In this document: piece by piece, positions 10,331-23,586 of the stretch
How positions within the stretch are numbered: position 1 is the first letter of the stretch
How the letters are laid out: every line of letters begins with the position of its first letter
From: Candidatus Heimdallarchaeota archaeon
GTDB lineage: Archaea; Asgardarchaeota; Heimdallarchaeia; JABLTI01
Direction: 5' to 3'
DNA length: 32,000 bases
NCBI GenBank assembly: GCA_030614005.1
Contig: JAUWKS010000023.1
Coordinates: forward strand, 1 to 32,000
Notes under the pieces: model-generated
What the model was told of the DNA's origin: nothing
The model's database searches: none
The model's input: only the letters and a program-made list of their open reading frames with translations
Position numbers and translations under genes: made by a program

Positions 10331-10562
10331 TGCATTCTCTCTTCTATGACACTCTTTATTACATTTTTTTAAGTGTTAATTCTCTTAATAAATCTACTAA
10401 TATATAAAATTAAATGTTTCTATTATATTAAATGCATAAATAAAGGAACATTTCAAGAACTTCTCACTTGATAATATACAAGCTCAAGTCAAAATATAAT
10501 CCAATTTCCTTTTAGATGATTATCTTAGTTATAAATAAGGCAACAAATTGGAGCTCAATAAA

Positions 10563-12224
10563 ATGTCTAACCCAGAAGATAATTTAGAAATTGACAATTC
10601 TAAAGAAAAATCTTCTCAAAACGAAAATAAAGACATTCTCATTTTGGAATCGGAAGAAAAGGGTGTAAGGATTTTTTTTAAAAAAACCTGGTTCTGGCTG
10701 AAAGAAAGTAAACAAAAAACCTTTTCTCTTGTATTTCTCTTGTTATTTATTGCATTTATGATTTTCTTGGGAGTATTCGAAAATGATCCAACTTCATTAA
10801 TGCTCGAGCTAGTTTATTGGTTTCAAGATAAAACAGGAGATATAGGGTTATACATTGGTGTAGGAGTTATCTCAATTTTTGGTAATTTTGTTATGTTTAT
10901 ACCAGTGTTCTATGCAGCTGTTATAATGTTTGTAGCAGTGATACCTGGGATAAATGTTTTTTTCCTTGGAATAGCAGCAGGAATTGGTGCTTCCATAGGA
11001 CAAATAGCTTCCTGGTTTGTAGGGAGAGCTACTCGAGAAGTAGCTGGAGATAAACTAGAAAAACAACTAAGAAAAACGCAAAGATGGGTTGAAAGAGGCT
11101 TGGCTCCAATAATGATTTTTATTTTTGCTGCAACTCCACTTCCGGATGAAGTATTGCTAATAATGATTGGCCTAATTGGTTATTCACTCGGAAAAACATT
11201 GATTTACTGTTTTATTGGAAAAATAGTTTTAACATTGAGTATATCTGTCGTTGCTAATCTTTTTAGTACAACTGCTGTGGGTGAATGGTTTCTTGAAACA
11301 CTTTTCGGTCTCACAAGAACAATGTTAATTGAGCAAGAATTGCCTGCTGGAAATAATATTTGGACGTCTATTGCAATTTGGATTATAGCTGCAACATTGG
11401 TTGTTGCAGTGACATTTGTTGATTGGGTGGATATATATGATAACTTTTTATGTAAAAAAGAGGAGAGACAGCTAAAACAAATTTTTGAAGTAGCTAAAGC
11501 ATCTTATAAATTGGATGATTCAGCAATTGTGCTCAATCACAAAGATAGGGCAATTTCAATACAACTATTAGAAGAACAAAAGCAAGAACATTTCCCGGAA
11601 GAGTCTCTTTGGTTCTTTCAAGAAAAATTATCAAAAAAGAAAGAAGTATTCTTTCGTAAAAGCCTCATAGCAATTGATACTATTGCAAATACAACAGTTG
11701 ATATTATTTTAAATAAAGAATGGTTAGAAAATTTCAGAGCGAATATTCAAGGCTTAAAATTTAAATCTTTGAAAAACAGATCAACGGAGCTCATTAAATT
11801 CCCACAAAAAGTGCTGGATATTGGGTTTATCGTATCAGAAAGTAGATTGATCGAGTTTCAAATTAAATTAAAGCACATTCTCCCTGAAGAAAATATGACA
11901 GATTTGTTGGATAAATCTAATTTTAAGAAACGAGAGAAACGACAATTAATGCGAGCAAAAGTCAATGTAGAAGTCTTAATTGAAACTTTATCTAGCAATG
12001 AAACAAAAGTTTGGGCGATTGGTTTAAAAGAAGGGACCCATATCAATAAAATCTACAAATTTAGAAAAGTAGAATCAATATTCTATTGGTTACAATTATT
12101 AAATTGTTTAAGCGATCAGCCAAGTAAAGTGAAAGGGTTATTAATTTTAAATTTGATTGATACATCAGGTGAAGATATCGAAATTACTACTCCAAAAGAT
12201 ATCTTAAATAATTGTCCGATTTGA
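10563..12224 (+). CDS. DedA/VTT (SNARE-associated) family membrane protein with long soluble C-terminal extension
   Basis: Multiple TM segments, GIGASIGQIASWFVGR, FIFAATPLPDEV and FIGK motifs. ATG 10563 follows GGAG; the track uses TTG 10548. Confidence 0.85.
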   Translation: MSNPEDNLEIDNSKEKSSQNENKDILILESEEKGVRIFFKKTWFWLKESKQKTFSLVFLLLFIAFMIFLGVFENDPTSLMLELVYWFQDKTGDIGLYIGVGVISIFGNFVMFIPVFYAAVIMFVAVIPGINVFFLGIAAGIGASIGQIASWFVGRATREVAGDKLEKQLRKTQRWVERGLAPIMIFIFAATPLPDEVLLIMIGLIGYSLGKTLIYCFIGKIVLTLSISVVANLFSTTAVGEWFLETLFGLTRTMLIEQELPAGNNIWTSIAIWIIAATLVVAVTFVDWVDIYDNFLCKKEERQLKQIFEVAKASYKLDDSAIVLNHKDRAISIQLLEEQKQEHFPEESLWFFQEKLSKKKEVFFRKSLIAIDTIANTTVDIILNKEWLENFRANIQGLKFKSLKNRSTELIKFPQKVLDIGFIVSESRLIEFQIKLKHILPEENMTDLLDKSNFKKREKRQLMRAKVNVEVLIETLSSNETKVWAIGLKEGTHINKIYKFRKVESIFYWLQLLNCLSDQPSKVKGLLILNLIDTSGEDIEITTPKDILNNCPI

Positions 12225-19870: not shown

Positions 19871-20254
19871 ATGAATGATGGAGATACCAAGTTGACATTT
19901 GAATCAGAAGCTGCAAGATTACAGAATGATGGTGTAGTAGGAGCGCTCGCTTTAGTAGGGGCTGATGGTGCTGTCCATTGGCAAACACAGAATTGGCAAG
20001 TAGATGGACCATCCATGATTGATTCATGGACAAAAAAAGCGCCTTGGATTGTAATACAAGGAATAAAATATTCAACAATAGACATTACAAATAGTCGAAT
20101 GATTTGTACTAACACCCAACAGCAAGGACATATAGTTATTGCAAAAACTCCATTCTGGCAAGGTTTCGTGATGGCGTGGTGTTCACCTGCTCATCAAGTT
20201 AGATCTGCCTACGTTGATATTGCTCGTTTAGCATCTGAAGTGAAACCTGGTTAA
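19871..20254 (+). CDS. Asgard-type profilin
   Basis: 127 aa. ALVGADGAVHWQTQNWQVDG...WIVIQGIKYS...RMICTNTQQQGHIV...AYVDIARLA matches the Asgard profilin pattern. Confidence 0.88.
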   Translation: MNDGDTKLTFESEAARLQNDGVVGALALVGADGAVHWQTQNWQVDGPSMIDSWTKKAPWIVIQGIKYSTIDITNSRMICTNTQQQGHIVIAKTPFWQGFVMAWCSPAHQVRSAYVDIARLASEVKPG

Positions 20255-20320: not shown

Positions 20321-23300
20321 TTAATTATCTTGTCCAAAAATATTTGGATTTGAGAATATTTCTGTGGCGGTAATATATACAGTTCCTTTCTCTACTACTT
20401 GGATTCTCGAAAGATCAATACCTGTAACAATCATTTTTGAAAGATAATGCCCGTATTCTGCTAATGTTTGTATTTTTCTTCCTACAACGAGTGTTTTCAA
20501 AATATTATGTGGACATAATGAATCTCGTAACTCTACTCCAATGCTTCCGATTACTGAGTCTGAAATATCTGTCATAATTTGTTTTTCCACAGTTGCATTT
20601 GTGAAAAGTCCAACCATTTCTCGAGATAATTTTTCAGAGATGAGAAGAACAGGTTTATCTGATAATGAAATTCCCAAACAGGTTCCCAAATGTCGACCAT
20701 TTGTTGTTCGTACACGTAAGCATTCAATTGGAATTACTTCAGAAGGATGGAAAACTCGTGCTGAATTTTTCAAAGTAACTTTGTTTCTCTTGATACTATT
20801 GATGGATCCACCTGAAATAAATACTCTATAAGAGTTGAGAATTTCATGGGGAAGTATCGGAAAACCTCTTTGTAATGAATAGTTAATCAATGTCTTTGGT
20901 TTGAGAGCTTCGCCTTCTGGAAGGCGCAACTGCTTAGCAATGAGATATTTCAATAACCAAAGTCGTTCTGTTGGATCATCTTCAGAGATATTTAATCTCT
21001 GAACTAAATAATTGACAATTGATTTATCTGGTTGCTTTGTATCTACTAGAAAAATTTTCCCCATAAGTGGATGTTTCACTGAAGCAATGATTGTACCAAA
21101 TGAAATTCCATGATGAAATAGACAATTTTTACCTATCGGATTATTATCTTCATCATCGAAATCTTTAGCTAACCATGGAGCAGTTCTGTATGGTTTTTGT
21201 GGTAAAATCTCGTCTAAATTACAAATAATTGATCCTCTTTTTATTCTTATCTTATTGATTGGTACTAAGCCGAGAATTTCTGGCTTTCCAATTTTATCAG
21301 AGCTAGGGTAACTGATATTTCTAAAATTAGCGAATTCTTGTAACTTTGAAATGTGTAAAGCTACATCTCTTTCTATCTGTAATGAATCAACTACTTCCTG
21401 AATAACAAAGATTTTTCGTTTTGTCGCTGATTCCAATAGCTCTTCCGTAACCCAAAGTGGTTTGATTTGATCAAATATTTTATCAATAATTACTTGATCT
21501 CCAATAGGCTCTGTTACCAATGTATACCCGAGTTTATTTTTATCATAAACAACTGCTTCTTGTAAGTAACCATAAAATTCGCGTGAACCATCATCTTTTA
21601 GATTAAATAGAGCTTTCCCTGTTAATTTCCATGCTTCAGTAGCTGCTTCCAATAATTTTTCTGAAATCATAGACGTTTTTTGTGGTTTTACCAGATTTTC
21701 TTCGATAATTTGGCGAGAAGGACTTTTTACTTCTCCAGTTTCTTGTGGAGTTTGTATTGGTGGTGAAGCTTCCTCTACTGAAGAAGCAGTTAAGGGCGTG
21801 GAACTTACATCTACATCCGGAATTGATGGTATCTCTGCAATAGCATCTATAGGTTTACTTGCTGGAATTTCTGTCTCAGTGGTTTCTATTGCATCTAATT
21901 CATCTGGTTGCAAAGCATTGATTTCTTTTACTTCAGTTATTTCACCAAATGTTTCACCTATTTCTTGAGCTTCAATAATGCGTTCAGAATCAATTTTTGC
22001 AGGTTTTGTAATATCAGAAGTTTTTCGTTTTTCTACTTCCTCTGCTAAACTTGAGAAGGTTACTTTTGTTATTACTTGTTTGCTTTGTGTTTTTTGCACT
22101 TCTTTTGGTTTTGGTAGTTCTTCAACTTCCTTAACTTCCTTTGAATCCAAAAGTTTAGTTAGAAATTCTTCAAAAGAGTTGAGAATAACTTTTTCGGTTA
22201 ACTCGTTCATCCTTTTTGGTGAACCTTTAATATTATATTGTAAATTAAAATCTTCCATACCAACAATTTCTAAATCAATATCAGGAGTAATTGTTAATTG
22301 AGGTGTTTGAGGTATGCGTAATTTTGCATCTATTTCTTCCGATTCAAAAGGTATTTCATCTTCTTCACTAGTATCTTCAATATCTAATGTATCAATTAAA
22401 AAGAAAGTATTTTCAAACTTTTCTTCCTCAATTGACAAAGTTTCAATGAGTGGATCAGTTGCTATTTCAGAAGCTGCAATTTTGCTTTCATCTGCCGAAT
22501 GAGATGAATGGGCACTTGCACTAGAATCAACTTCAATCCCAAATTGATCTTCAACAAATAATTCGTGTGATTCATCCATTTTTAAATGGTCTTTATCTAA
22601 ACGACATAAACAATTATTGTAATTTTTAATATCCTTAGTTAATAATTTAATATAATCAAGAAGCTCATTTATTGTTTGTTGAAATTCGCGTAACTTTTTG
22701 AAATCAGGAAGAGAACCGATTTTTGATGAGGAACGAATTTCTAATTGAGTTGCTTTAAGTGTTGCAAGTAACTCTGCTAAGGCATCACGATATTTATTTC
22801 TTAAATTAATTTCTTTCTTTAAATCTGTAGAGATAGTTGATAATTCAGCATCGTTTGCAACACCATGACCATAAGAGAACTGCAAGAAGTTTTGCAAAGT
22901 AAATTTAAGTAGATAACCTTTTGATGGATTTCGTTTCAGATATTTCTCTCGAGCACCAAACCGATTTCTGGCTAATCTGAGATCATATTCTAATGTTTCT
23001 AGTTTTCTGGCAGCCGAATCTTGATTTACTTTTTTCTCAGCTAATAAAATTTTTATTTTGTGCATATCATGCTCTAATTTCTTAACATTCCTCTCTAATT
23101 CACTAATTTCTCTACGAATTTTAAGATGTCTAAAGAATGTTCGAGGAACTTTATAGTTGGGTATTAAGTCTTCAATTGATATTTTGCCAATTAAACTATT
23201 AGCACTCAGAGGGATTTCCTTTGTATCTATTGCTTCTCGTAATTCTTCGTCTGTTAGTGCAGTTGCTTGTTGAAATTGTTGTTCTAATACTTGTATTTTA

Positions 23301-23398
23301 GTTTCGAAAACTTCAGAATCAATTTTCTCAAGAGCGTATTGCTTTTCGATTTCCATTATATCTTTAAGAATTTTAATCCTGGAGTTCATATGTTTCAT
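20321..23398 (-). CDS. Large protein: N-terminal coiled coil, acidic low-complexity linker, three tandem PRC-barrel-like repeats; start uncertain (ATG 23398/23389; track TTG 23509)
   Basis: Long ORF with heptad-rich N-terminus. Repeats begin LTGKALF...YGYLQE, PIGKNCLF..GISFGTI and ECLRVRTTNGRHLGTC, and end VPINKIRIK, ISGGSINSIK and IDLSRIQVVE. Confidence 0.85.
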   Translation of the reverse strand: MKHMNSRIKILKDIMEIEKQYALEKIDSEVFETKIQVLEQQFQQATALTDEELREAIDTKEIPLSANSLIGKISIEDLIPNYKVPRTFFRHLKIRREISELERNVKKLEHDMHKIKILLAEKKVNQDSAARKLETLEYDLRLARNRFGAREKYLKRNPSKGYLLKFTLQNFLQFSYGHGVANDAELSTISTDLKKEINLRNKYRDALAELLATLKATQLEIRSSSKIGSLPDFKKLREFQQTINELLDYIKLLTKDIKNYNNCLCRLDKDHLKMDESHELFVEDQFGIEVDSSASAHSSHSADESKIAASEIATDPLIETLSIEEEKFENTFFLIDTLDIEDTSEEDEIPFESEEIDAKLRIPQTPQLTITPDIDLEIVGMEDFNLQYNIKGSPKRMNELTEKVILNSFEEFLTKLLDSKEVKEVEELPKPKEVQKTQSKQVITKVTFSSLAEEVEKRKTSDITKPAKIDSERIIEAQEIGETFGEITEVKEINALQPDELDAIETTETEIPASKPIDAIAEIPSIPDVDVSSTPLTASSVEEASPPIQTPQETGEVKSPSRQIIEENLVKPQKTSMISEKLLEAATEAWKLTGKALFNLKDDGSREFYGYLQEAVVYDKNKLGYTLVTEPIGDQVIIDKIFDQIKPLWVTEELLESATKRKIFVIQEVVDSLQIERDVALHISKLQEFANFRNISYPSSDKIGKPEILGLVPINKIRIKRGSIICNLDEILPQKPYRTAPWLAKDFDDEDNNPIGKNCLFHHGISFGTIIASVKHPLMGKIFLVDTKQPDKSIVNYLVQRLNISEDDPTERLWLLKYLIAKQLRLPEGEALKPKTLINYSLQRGFPILPHEILNSYRVFISGGSINSIKRNKVTLKNSARVFHPSEVIPIECLRVRTTNGRHLGTCLGISLSDKPVLLISEKLSREMVGLFTNATVEKQIMTDISDSVIGSIGVELRDSLCPHNILKTLVVGRKIQTLAEYGHYLSKMIVTGIDLSRIQVVEKGTVYITATEIFSNPNIFGQDN

Positions 23399-23586
23399 TT
23401 CCCAGTGTCTTTTATTATTATTATTATCTTGTTCTTTATGCTTTAATAAATCTAACATATTGAATTTAATGTTCACAGCATATTTACTATTATATGAGTC
23501 TTTCAGCAAGCTCAGAAAATAATTAAATAAGATAAAGGTTTTTTAATATCCCATATTAATTTAGTAACTCTTTTGGTTTGAAAAAT

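What the first reader, a model, noticed from the sequence alone, without database searches (positions are those of the whole stretch)
20321..21640. Three tandem PRC-barrel-like repeats, each with the same inserted helical subdomain
Repeats span ~21630-21230, ~21140-20770 and ~20730-20370. Each opens with PRC strands (xGK...G.l..) and closes with ip...I..i...v.l. Between these, each carries a related insert: VVDSLQIERDVALHISKL, IAKQLRLPEGEALKPKTL and VIGSIGVELRDSLCPHNI. I know of no described PRC variant of this kind. Tandem barrels could mimic the oligomers or filaments formed by single-domain archaeal PRC proteins.
Basis: partly seen in the sequence, partly recalled or inferred. Interest (0 to 1): 0.7.

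Follow-up and report, generated by a model that had tools for sequence, protein, structure and literature searches.

The report
Triple split PRC-barrel module, Asgard scaffold
The flagged stretch encodes the C-terminal body of a roughly 1,020-residue Asgard-archaeal protein: three ancient copies of a PRC beta-barrel, each split by the same small helical insert, in a gene family with no database annotation that stays next to the actin regulator profilin in several deeply diverged lineages.

Summary
Window 20360-21637 (minus strand) encodes three tandem units of about 130-145 residues. They are only 11-16% identical, so BLASTP and profiles of close homologues see no repeat. Profiles that include 25%-identity homologues do (hhalign E 3e-8, 2e-6, 2e-5; scores 36-52, shuffled maximum 17).

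AlphaFold2 gives a confident model (pLDDT 89, pTM 0.85). Each unit is three strands, then 3-4 helices, then three strands. Searches of 48,161 solved chains that do not rely on Foldseek place only PRC barrels above Z 5, for unit 1 alone and for the whole module. With the inserts cut out, units 2 and 3 match a profile of canonical Asgard PRC domains (Prob 91% and 77%). Pfam PRC itself does not hit the gene.

The three inserts are homologous to each other, so the insert predates the triplication. No single-unit protein was found.

The family occurs in 80 of 399 genomes of the phylum. Profilin is an adjacent gene in three lineages, in different arrangements, and DUF167 in four.

Function is inferred, not shown: a protein-interaction platform on a coiled-coil scaffold, probably linked to the actin cytoskeleton. 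This scan noted the same gene only in this genome, not on other DNA.

The parts
20321..23398 (-). Whole gene. The longest ORF runs to a TTG at 23509 (1062 aa). Homologues begin at the residue matching M41 (ATG at 23389), and a second ATG (M38) lies at 23398, so the likely product is about 1022-1025 aa. The stop codon is at 20321-20323.
   Evidence: ORF list; 22-sequence alignment A1, whose consensus starts at M41; sequence at the start. No transmembrane segment (maximum Kyte-Doolittle 19-residue mean 1.26).
22520..23389 (-). N-terminal conserved helical/coiled-coil region (residues 41-330 of the 1062-aa ORF).
   Evidence: Many invariant columns in A1. No Pfam family, including none for CdvA. 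An HMM of this region finds only members of the window's own family-level lineage.
21659..22519 (-). Acidic, low-complexity linker (residues 331-617; pI 4.3; 23% D+E). Many orthologues carry poly-proline runs here; this genome's copy has none.
   Evidence: Composition; poly-Pro census.
21209..21637 (-). Unit 1: a split PRC barrel (ORF residues 625-767). Strands 1-3, then the insert, then strands 4-6, preceded by a short helix.
   Evidence: AF2 secondary structure. VIA-align wide search: 2dyi Z 6.3, 3htr Z 6.3, CdvA 9s9g Z 5.9; all 7 hits with Z>=5 are PRC barrels. ESM-Atlas neighbours are PRC clusters.
21281..21511 (-). Helical insert of unit 1 (residues 667-743; four helices; contains VVDSLQIERDVALHISKL).
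   Evidence: AF2 helices at model residues 55-65, 72-76, 78-93 and 103-112. Insert-only profiles: R1i-R2i Prob 93%, E 2.3e-7, 65 columns; shuffled maximum 14.9.
21152..21208 (-). Conserved connector between units 1 and 2 (PYRTAPW motif in the close homologues; its last Pro is nearly invariant across the family).
   Evidence: Alignments A1 and A2.
20759..21151 (-). Unit 2: a split PRC barrel (residues 787-917), the best conserved unit and the most PRC-like in sequence.
   Evidence: VIA-align: 7cq1 Z 7.6 (70 of 77 residues), 1pm3 Z 7.5, 8onw_D Z 7.0, all spanning model residues 164-305. With the insert cut out, it matches a canonical Asgard PRC profile at Prob 91.5%, E 8.6e-7, 63 columns; shuffled maximum 13.5.
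20828..21040 (-). Helical insert of unit 2 (residues 824-894; contains IAKQLRLPEGEALKPKTL and the conserved FPILP).
   Evidence: AF2 helices at 212-221, 229-244, 254-264 and 270-275. W234 and P270 are invariant in A2. Only weak matches to small helical bundles (Z 3.9-4.9).
20360..20740 (-). Unit 3: a split PRC barrel (residues 924-1050).
   Evidence: VIA-align: 2f1l (RimM PRC domain) Z 8.3, rmsd 2.5, 64 residues on model 306-437; 8onw_A Z 7.9. Insert-deleted core against the canonical PRC profile: Prob 77%, E 2.1e-5, 58 columns.
20429..20635 (-). Helical insert of unit 3 (residues 959-1027; contains VIGSIGVELRDSLCPHNI).
   Evidence: AF2 helices at 346-349, 358-373, 383-392 and 399-409. Insert profiles: R1i-R3i Prob 83%, R2i-R3i Prob 84%.
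19871..20254 (+). Profilin gene, convergent with the scaffold gene and separated from it by a 66-nt gap. It is a conserved neighbour, not part of the protein.
   Evidence: Pfam Profilin E 2.8e-4, below the cut-off. A profile of 11 neighbours matches solved Asgard profilins: 5zza E 5e-28, 7pbh E 2e-20, 6yrr E 6e-16. Adjacency in other lineages.

Best explanation
**What it is (shown here by computation).** The stretch encodes the conserved C-terminal core of a cytoplasmic Asgard (Heimdallarchaeia-centred) protein family that has no annotation. The core is three tandem PRC-barrel domains. Each is interrupted between strand 3 and strand 4 by a homologous helical subdomain of about 70 residues with 3-4 helices. 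AlphaFold2 predicts that the three units pack into one compact body. The unit of barrel plus insert arose once and was then triplicated long ago.

**How it works (inferred).** The triple module would act as a multivalent protein-protein interaction platform, as single PRC barrels do in CdpB/SepF, CdvA/ESCRT-III and RimM/S19. An acidic, probably disordered linker ties it to an N-terminal coiled-coil region that probably oligomerises or localises the protein. The gene stays next to profilin (and DUF167) across deep divergence and through local rearrangements, so the most likely pathway is regulation or anchoring of the actin cytoskeleton.
For: **Repeat.** hhalign gives E 3e-8 to 2e-5, with shuffled and reversed controls scoring at most 16.7.

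**Fold.**
- AF2: pLDDT 88.8, pTM 0.85; unit 1 alone pLDDT 90.6.
- All solved-structure matches with Z>=5 are PRC barrels, in two searches that do not rely on Foldseek, and every row listed in the second look at Foldseek's own matches is a PRC barrel.
- Foldseek's own top hits are CdpB1/CdpB2, E 0.027.
- ESM-Atlas neighbours are PRC and RimM clusters.
- Insert-deleted units 2 and 3 match canonical Asgard PRC profiles at Prob 91.5% and 77%, with controls.

**Inserts.** The inserts are mutually homologous at Prob 83-93%.

**Core of the family.** The C-module is found in 80 of 399 genomes of the phylum. The N-terminal HMM finds only the window's own lineage.

**Location.** No transmembrane segment.

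**Context.**
- Profilin lies convergent downstream in the window's own family-level lineage.
- It lies downstream in a second lineage.
- It lies divergent upstream in a third lineage, in 5 of 5 genomes from 4 genera.
- The profilin identity is confirmed against solved Asgard profilins.
- DUF167 is operonic or adjacent in four lineages.
Against: - Pfam PRC (PF05239) does not hit the gene, neither in a protein scan nor in a six-frame scan of the genome.
- Z-scores of 5-8 are middling in absolute terms.
- Unit 1's barrel core has no significant sequence match to canonical PRC (Prob 4%).
- The structure is a prediction from 33 sequences.
- Nothing tests binding. Gene neighbourhood is the only functional evidence.
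- Profilin is not adjacent in two other lineages that carry the family (10 loci), nor next to the shorter paralogues.
- The poly-Pro tracts that would suggest profilin recruitment are absent from this genome's copy.
Confidence: 0.6

Rival explanations
1. It is a cell-division adaptor of the CdpB/CdvA kind. The PRC barrels would bind SepF/FtsZ or ESCRT-III rather than the actin system, and the coiled coil would polymerise at the division site. The profilin adjacency would be incidental.
For: Every experimentally characterised archaeal PRC protein I found in the literature acts in division (papers read). CdvA also combines a PRC barrel with a coiled coil. Structural matches include CdvA at Z 5.1-5.9 and the A. 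fulgidus PRC1/PRC2 and CdpB1/2 proteins at Z 6-7.9.
Against: CdvA and CdpB score no better than RimM or reaction-centre H. No Pfam family at all, CdvA included, matches the N-terminus, and the domain order is reversed. Genomes of the same genus also carry ordinary PF05239-positive PRC genes that could fill the CdpB role. No ftsZ, sepF or ESCRT gene turned up in the neighbouring genes examined.
Confidence: 0.2
2. It is a nucleic-acid- or ribosome-associated factor. The barrels would act like the RimM PRC domain, which binds a ribosomal protein, or the helical inserts would act as helix-turn-helix-like DNA or RNA binders presented in triplicate.
For: RimM PRC domains are among the best structural matches (2f1l Z 8.3, 7cq1 Z 7.6-7.7). 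The unit 2 insert weakly resembles a lambda-repressor-like protein (Z 3.9). Unit 2 is basic (pI 9.7).
Against: There is no RimM N-terminal domain and no HTH Pfam hit. The insert matches are below any meaningful Z and are mixed with PG-binding-like bundles. The module as a whole is near neutral, and the linker is strongly acidic. No translation or DNA-metabolism gene is a conserved neighbour.
Confidence: 0.08
3. There is no real repeat or PRC fold. The motif resemblance would be chance, and the AF2 model would be over-confident.
For: Pairwise BLASTP and close-homologue profiles see nothing. Pfam PRC is silent.
Against: Profile scores are 2-3 times the best of 15 shuffles for every pair. Independent lines agree: sequence profile against canonical PRC, two AF2 models, and three structure libraries.
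Confidence: 0.03

Closest known systems
PRC-barrel domain (Pfam PF05239; RimM C-terminal domain, reaction-centre H subunit, MTH1859, 3HTR)
   Same: The same small six-stranded barrel. Whole PRC domains superpose on each unit (64-77 residues, rmsd 2.4-3.5, Z 5-8.3). Units 2 and 3 keep the G-K/hydrophobic strand-1 and G-x-hydrophobic strand-2 signature and the closing 'iP...I..i....i.l' strands.
   Different: The barrel is split by a helical subdomain of about 70 residues where canonical PRC barrels have a loop or a short helix. Three such units are fused in one chain. The sequence is too diverged for the Pfam model.
CdpB1/CdpB2 (archaeal division PRC proteins; PDB 8QZO, 8ONW)
   Same: Archaeal cytoplasmic PRC-barrel proteins that work as hetero-oligomeric adaptors. 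They are Foldseek's top hits (E 0.027) and reach VIA Z 6.0-7.9.
   Different: CdpB proteins are single-barrel proteins of 150-170 residues. They are not orthologues: separate PF05239-positive genes exist in this genus. There is no evidence here of a SepF link.
CdvA (Thermoproteota; PDB 9S9G, 9S9I)
   Same: It combines a PRC barrel with a coiled coil and forms polymers. Barrel match Z 5.1-5.9.
   Different: CdvA has one uninterrupted barrel at the N-terminus followed by the coiled coil. Here the coiled coil comes first, then a 290-residue acidic linker, then three split barrels. No CdvA sequence signal and no ESCRT context.
Formin FH1-FH2 and Ena/VASP (functional analogy only)
   Same: In many orthologues, poly-proline runs lie in a disordered region 26-115 residues upstream of a folded C-terminal module, in a coiled-coil protein encoded beside profilin.
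   Different: There is no homology to FH2, EVH1 or WH2. The window's own protein and the other profilin-linked lineages lack poly-Pro runs. No actin or profilin binding has been shown.

Membership tests
PRC-barrel superfamily (PF05239 and relatives) | Sequence match to the Pfam PRC model at or above its gathering score | tested here: not met
   No PRC hit for the protein or its C-terminal 439 residues even at E<=1. A six-frame PF05239 scan of the whole genome finds only another gene on contig C4.
PRC-barrel superfamily (PF05239 and relatives) | PRC-type beta-barrel fold that superposes on solved PRC domains over the whole domain | tested here: met
   Predicted models only. Unit 1: 7 of 7 hits with Z>=5 are PRC barrels. 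Units 2 and 3: the top 10 hits at Z 5.1-7.9 are all PRC barrels, up to Z 8.3. Targets are covered almost end to end, for example 7cq1 residues 1-77 of 77.
PRC-barrel superfamily (PF05239 and relatives) | Profile-level sequence homology to bona fide PRC domains | tested here: met
   Insert-deleted unit 2 gives Prob 91.5%, E 8.6e-7. Unit 3 gives Prob 77%, E 2.1e-5. Both were compared with a profile of 22 PF05239-positive Asgard domains, and shuffled profiles score at most 13.5. Unit 1 alone is inconclusive (Prob 4%), but it is tied to units 2 and 3 by the repeat.
PRC-barrel superfamily (PF05239 and relatives) | A contiguous domain of about 80 residues | tested here: not met
   Each barrel is interrupted by 69-77 residues of helices between strands 3 and 4. 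This is the feature that makes it a variant.
CdpB1/CdpB2 division proteins | Single PRC barrel protein orthologous to HVO_1691/HVO_1964 that binds SepF at midcell | tested here: not met
   The architecture differs (three split barrels in a protein of about 1,020 residues). Canonical PRC genes are present separately in the genus. SepF binding cannot be tested with these tools.
CdvA | N-terminal PRC barrel, then the CdvA coiled-coil domain (PF18822), then a C-terminal ESCRT-III-binding tail | tested here: not met
   No Pfam family of any kind matches at E<=1, PF18822 included, and the domain order is reversed. The barrel-only structural match of Z 5.1-5.9 is no better than the match to RimM.
RimM | N-terminal RimM domain (PF01782) followed by a PRC barrel | tested here: not met
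   No PF01782 hit. Only the PRC half is matched structurally.
Formin / Ena-VASP type profilin-actin recruiters (works-like question only) | Poly-proline tract that binds profilin, next to an actin-binding module | tested here: inconclusive
   Runs of PPPP to P11 occur in most orthologues of the window's own lineage, but not in the window's protein nor in the other lineages. No FH2, WH2 or EVH1 Pfam hit. Binding has not been tested experimentally.

The most novel reading that the evidence does not exclude
The family is an Asgard-specific actin-assembly or anchoring factor. It would be a coiled-coil oligomer whose C-terminal triple split-PRC body engages profilin, actin or the membrane. In poly-Pro-bearing orthologues, an FH1-like tract would feed profilin-actin to it. 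That would make it a non-homologous functional counterpart of formins or Ena/VASP, and the missing natural partner for polyproline-binding Asgard profilins.
Probability: 0.12. Interest if true: 0.9.

Novelty: new variant of a known kind. Interest (0 to 1): 0.55.

Why it matters
PRC barrels have recently emerged as core adaptors of archaeal cell division, but only as single, uninterrupted domains, or as domains that are duplicated or fused to others. Here the barrel has taken in a helical subdomain and been triplicated into one body. That body is the conserved core of a large scaffold family found in nearly all sampled genomes of several Heimdallarchaeia lineages. No database model detects it.

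Its gene keeps company with profilin through rearrangements. This gives a concrete, cloneable candidate for a regulator or anchor of the Asgard actin cytoskeleton. Published work shows that some Heimdall and Thor profilins bind polyproline weakly, but names no confirmed native ligand (PMC8410842). The poly-Pro-bearing orthologues of this family make that question directly testable.

Tried and rejected
**Repeat detection.**
- BLASTP self-comparison of the units found nothing significant.
- hhalign with close-homologue profiles only was not significant. The repeat needed the distant homologues from the 1.84-billion-protein search.

**Family and fold searches.**
- Pfam scans of the protein, its parts, distant homologues and the paralogue found no family.
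- PDB sequence searches with the C-module and with a unit 2 profile found nothing.
- A search for stand-alone single units of 75-272 aa, using the unit 2 profile, found only fragments of the same family.
- The ESM Atlas feature search of unit 2 gave no usable hit.

**Complex prediction.** Complex prediction of the C-module with profilin gave no verdict (ipSAE 0.00 in both runs, controls not run). This is neither for nor against binding.

**Expression.** In the sequencing-run look-up for RNA, no RNA holder was listed.

**Other searches.**
- The search for related loci with A2 failed for lack of a conserved stretch. It was repeated with A1 and recovered only close relatives, labelled Heimdallarchaeota or Promethearchaeati MAGs.
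- The genome-wide Pfam Profilin scan did not ring anywhere, including in the control genomes. Profilin identity therefore rests on the PDB profile match.

**Readings considered and rejected.**
- Poly-Pro as a universal feature of the family: it is confined to one lineage and is absent from this genome.
- The helical insert as a known domain: only Z 3.3-4.9 matches to assorted small helical bundles (SleB N-terminal and PG-binding-like domains, a lambda-repressor-like protein).
Full report
**The gene.** The flagged coordinates are the 3' third of one long minus-strand ORF, 20321-23509 (1062 aa from a TTG). A 22-sequence alignment of full-length homologues starts at the residue matching M41 (ATG at 23389), and another ATG lies at 23398. 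The real product is therefore about 1,020 residues. It has three parts:
- a conserved helical N-terminal region (residues 41-330);
- an acidic low-complexity linker (331-617; pI 4.3; 23% D+E);
- a conserved C-terminal 445 residues.

There is no hydrophobic segment long enough for a membrane helix.

**Is the repeat real?** It cannot be seen in this sequence alone. BLASTP between the proposed units gives E 0.5-11. hhalign with profiles built only from homologues of 41-87% identity gives E 0.14-0.85.

An exhaustive HMMER search of 1.84 billion cluster representatives found only 20 relatives. Fourteen of them are distant (20-27% identity, 479-786 aa), and those inspected also have a helical N-terminal part upstream of the matched C-terminal module. 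Adding the distant homologues gave a 33-sequence alignment (A2).

| Pair | Prob | E-value | Columns |
|---|---|---|---|
| R1-R2 | 95% | 3.1e-8 | 122 |
| R1-R3 | 89% | 2.4e-6 | 68 |
| R2-R3 | 79% | 1.7e-5 | 78 |

Fifteen column shuffles and a reversal per pair never exceeded a score of 16.7, against observed scores of 52, 41 and 36. Identity between the units of the window's protein is 11-16%, and the DNA shows no repeat. The triplication is therefore old.

**Is the fold PRC?** AlphaFold2 on A2 gives mean pLDDT 88.8 and pTM 0.85 for the 445 residues. Each unit reads as three strands, then 3-4 helices, then three strands. Unit 1 folded alone gives pLDDT 90.6 with the same elements.

The structure searches all agree:
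- Foldseek against the PDB is weak, but its top hits are CdpB1/CdpB2 (E 0.027).
- VIA-align on Foldseek's candidates lists only PRC barrels among its 50 rows. Examples are RimM 2f1l (Z 8.3, rmsd 2.5, 64 residues) on unit 3, and 7cq1 (Z 7.6, 70 of 77 residues), MTH1859 (Z 7.5) and 8onw (Z 7.0) on unit 2. Reaction-centre H subunits and CdvA also appear.
- Two searches of 48,161 chains that do not rely on Foldseek agree. For unit 1 alone, all seven hits with Z>=5 are PRC barrels (Z 5.2-6.3). For the whole module, the top ten (Z 5.1-7.9) are all PRC barrels.
- ESM-Atlas neighbours are almost all PRC or RimM clusters.

In absolute terms these Z-scores are middling. The weight comes from four things. 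The family dominates the top of every list. The target domains are covered end to end across the insert. All three units and two models agree. And there is independent sequence evidence.

For the sequence evidence I collected 23 PF05239-positive domains from relatives' genomes; 22 of them, free of stop codons, went into the profile. I then compared them with the units after cutting out the inserts at the AF2 boundaries:
- Unit 2 gives Prob 91.5%, E 8.6e-7 over 63 columns.
- Unit 3 gives Prob 77%, E 2.1e-5 over 58 columns. Both halves of the barrel align in the right order.
- Unit 1 is not significant by itself.
- Shuffled PRC profiles score at most 13.5.

The Pfam PRC model itself never hits this gene. 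By that criterion it is not a recognised member.

**The insert.** Profiles of the inserts alone match each other better than the barrel cores do:

| Pair | Prob | E-value |
|---|---|---|
| R1i-R2i | 93% | 2.3e-7 (65 columns) |
| R1i-R3i | 83% | 8.5e-6 |
| R2i-R3i | 84% | 7.3e-6 |
| barrel cores | 3-19% | 1e-3 to 1e-2 |

These values are, with controls. The helical subdomain was therefore already in the barrel when the unit was triplicated. Canonical Asgard PRC proteins carry a short 'WEELxExLG' segment at the same place, between strand 3 and the 'PviP' strand 4. The insert thus looks like an expansion of an existing loop or helix.

The insert has a recurring motif, roughly hydrophobic-x-[KE]-x-L-x-[IV]-x(3,4)-[AS]-L-x-P-x(2)-hydrophobic. 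It has no convincing structural relative: Z is 3.3-4.9 to assorted small helical bundles. A profile search for free-standing single units of 75-272 aa found only fragments of this family.

**Family and distribution.** The homologues that carry a source name are called 'hypothetical protein', from MAGs labelled Heimdallarchaeota, Asgard group or Promethearchaeati. Two carry labels that look like binning errors.

A six-frame search of 399 genomes of the phylum finds the C-module in 80. In the tool's family-level groups (f-numbers), the counts are:

| Family-level group | Genomes with the module |
|---|---|
| f1 (the window's own) | 11 of 11 |
| f3 | 29 of 30 |
| f6 | 21 of 22 |
| f7 | 2 of 2 |
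| f24 | 6 of 7 |
| f25 | 5 of 5 |
| a few others | 5 in all (f22, f29 and three further groups) |
| f20 (the largest group) | 0 of 135 |

The full-length matches of f1, f3, f6, f32 and f33 cover nearly the whole model, so those proteins have all three units; many matches in f7, f24 and f25 are partial. An HMM of the N-terminal region finds only the window's own lineage, so the triple module is the conserved core and the helical N-termini vary. A shorter paralogue (536 aa) exists in this genome (G000 contig C82) and in its genus.

**Context.** The downstream convergent gene (19871-20254) is a profilin. It falls below the Pfam cut-off, but a profile of 11 such neighbours hits solved Asgard profilins at E 5e-28 to 9e-12.

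Profilin is adjacent in three lineages, in different arrangements:
- convergent downstream in the window's lineage (loci from ten further genomes, all close kin);
- downstream in a second lineage, convergent in two of its genomes and on the same strand in a third; this includes the 25%-identity homologue P0036;
- divergent upstream, 120-230 bp away, in a third lineage (5 of 5 genomes from 4 genera).

Profilin is not within 5 kb in two further lineages (10 loci), nor beside the paralogues.

A second small gene, DUF167/YggU (PF02594), follows the scaffold gene directly, overlapping or within about 30 bp, in nine loci of one lineage, and abuts it in one further locus. In the two other lineages it follows profilin. 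In this genome it lies elsewhere. An ancestral cluster of scaffold gene, profilin and DUF167 is the simplest reading. The same linkage was noted independently by this scan's follow-up of the N-terminus (e1-5383211). I re-derived it here.

**Poly-proline.** Seventeen of 22 close homologues carry runs of PPP up to P11 in the linker, 26-115 residues before the module. The window's protein has none, and neither do the other lineages. Published work shows weak polyproline binding by one Heimdall and one Thor profilin, and names no confirmed native ligand (PMC8410842). The tracts are suggestive for those orthologues, but they cannot explain the family-wide linkage.

**Mechanism.**
- Shown by computation: a triplicated split PRC barrel that forms one confident body. 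It is cytoplasmic and tethered by an acidic, probably disordered linker to a coiled-coil region.
- Inferred: a multivalent protein-binding platform, by analogy with how PRC barrels work in CdpB/SepF, CdvA and RimM, acting in the actin/profilin pathway on the strength of gene neighbourhood.

The rivals are a division adaptor (0.2), a nucleic-acid or ribosome factor (0.08), and an artefact (0.03). A complex prediction of the module with profilin returned no verdict and counts neither way.

**Novelty.** The fold is known. The architecture is new: a barrel split by a helical subdomain, triplicated, in a scaffold protein of about 1,020 residues. The family is also unannotated and, as far as my searches reach, undescribed. 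I rate it a new variant of a known kind, and of moderate interest. It would become high if the actin link holds.

Noticed in passing
Orthologues P0010-P0031, loci L001, L013, L014 and L092-L093 (linker region matching window ~21700-22000): Most close orthologues carry 1-6 poly-proline runs (PPP up to P11) 26-115 residues upstream of the triple PRC module. The window's own protein has none, and neither do the other lineages. This FH1-like tract sits beside a profilin gene.
   Followed up: partly
L040:5214-5498, L036:8242-8547, L004:4344-4664, L005:5184-5450; own genome G000:C67:776-991: DUF167/YggU (PF02594) is a second conserved neighbour. It follows the scaffold gene directly, overlapping or within about 30 bp, in one lineage (9 loci) and abuts it in one more locus. 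It follows profilin in two lineages. In this genome it is unlinked.
   Followed up: partly
G000:C82:48477-49223 (locus L050:4746-6353): A 536-aa paralogue with a coiled-coil N-terminus and a diverged copy of the module is present in this genome and across the genus. Neither profilin nor DUF167 lies within 5 kb of it.
   Followed up: partly
window 5277-6785 (-): This 502-aa ORF has an N-terminal stretch (residues ~14-84) that weakly resembles a canonical PRC barrel (local HMM 5.7 bits; hhalign E 0.01). A basic linker and a helical-repeat-like region follow. No Pfam family matches.
   Followed up: partly
window 21152-21208 (-): The connector between units 1 and 2 carries a PYRTAPW motif that is conserved among the close homologues; only its last Pro is kept in the distant ones. 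It may form part of an inter-unit interface.
   Followed up: no
window 386-1543 (+), 10548-12224 (+), 6987-8495 (+): Other eukaryote-flavoured or notable genes lie in the window: a Folliculin/longin-like protein (PF11704, E 1.4e-6), a VTT/DedA-domain membrane protein (PF09335) and a NurA-domain protein.
   Followed up: no
P0010 and P0027: Two orthologues are deposited under the names 'candidate division Zixibacteria bacterium' and 'Candidatus Bathyarchaeia archaeon'. Given 63-71% identity to the C-terminal region of Heimdallarchaeota proteins, these labels are probably binning or labelling errors.
   Followed up: no
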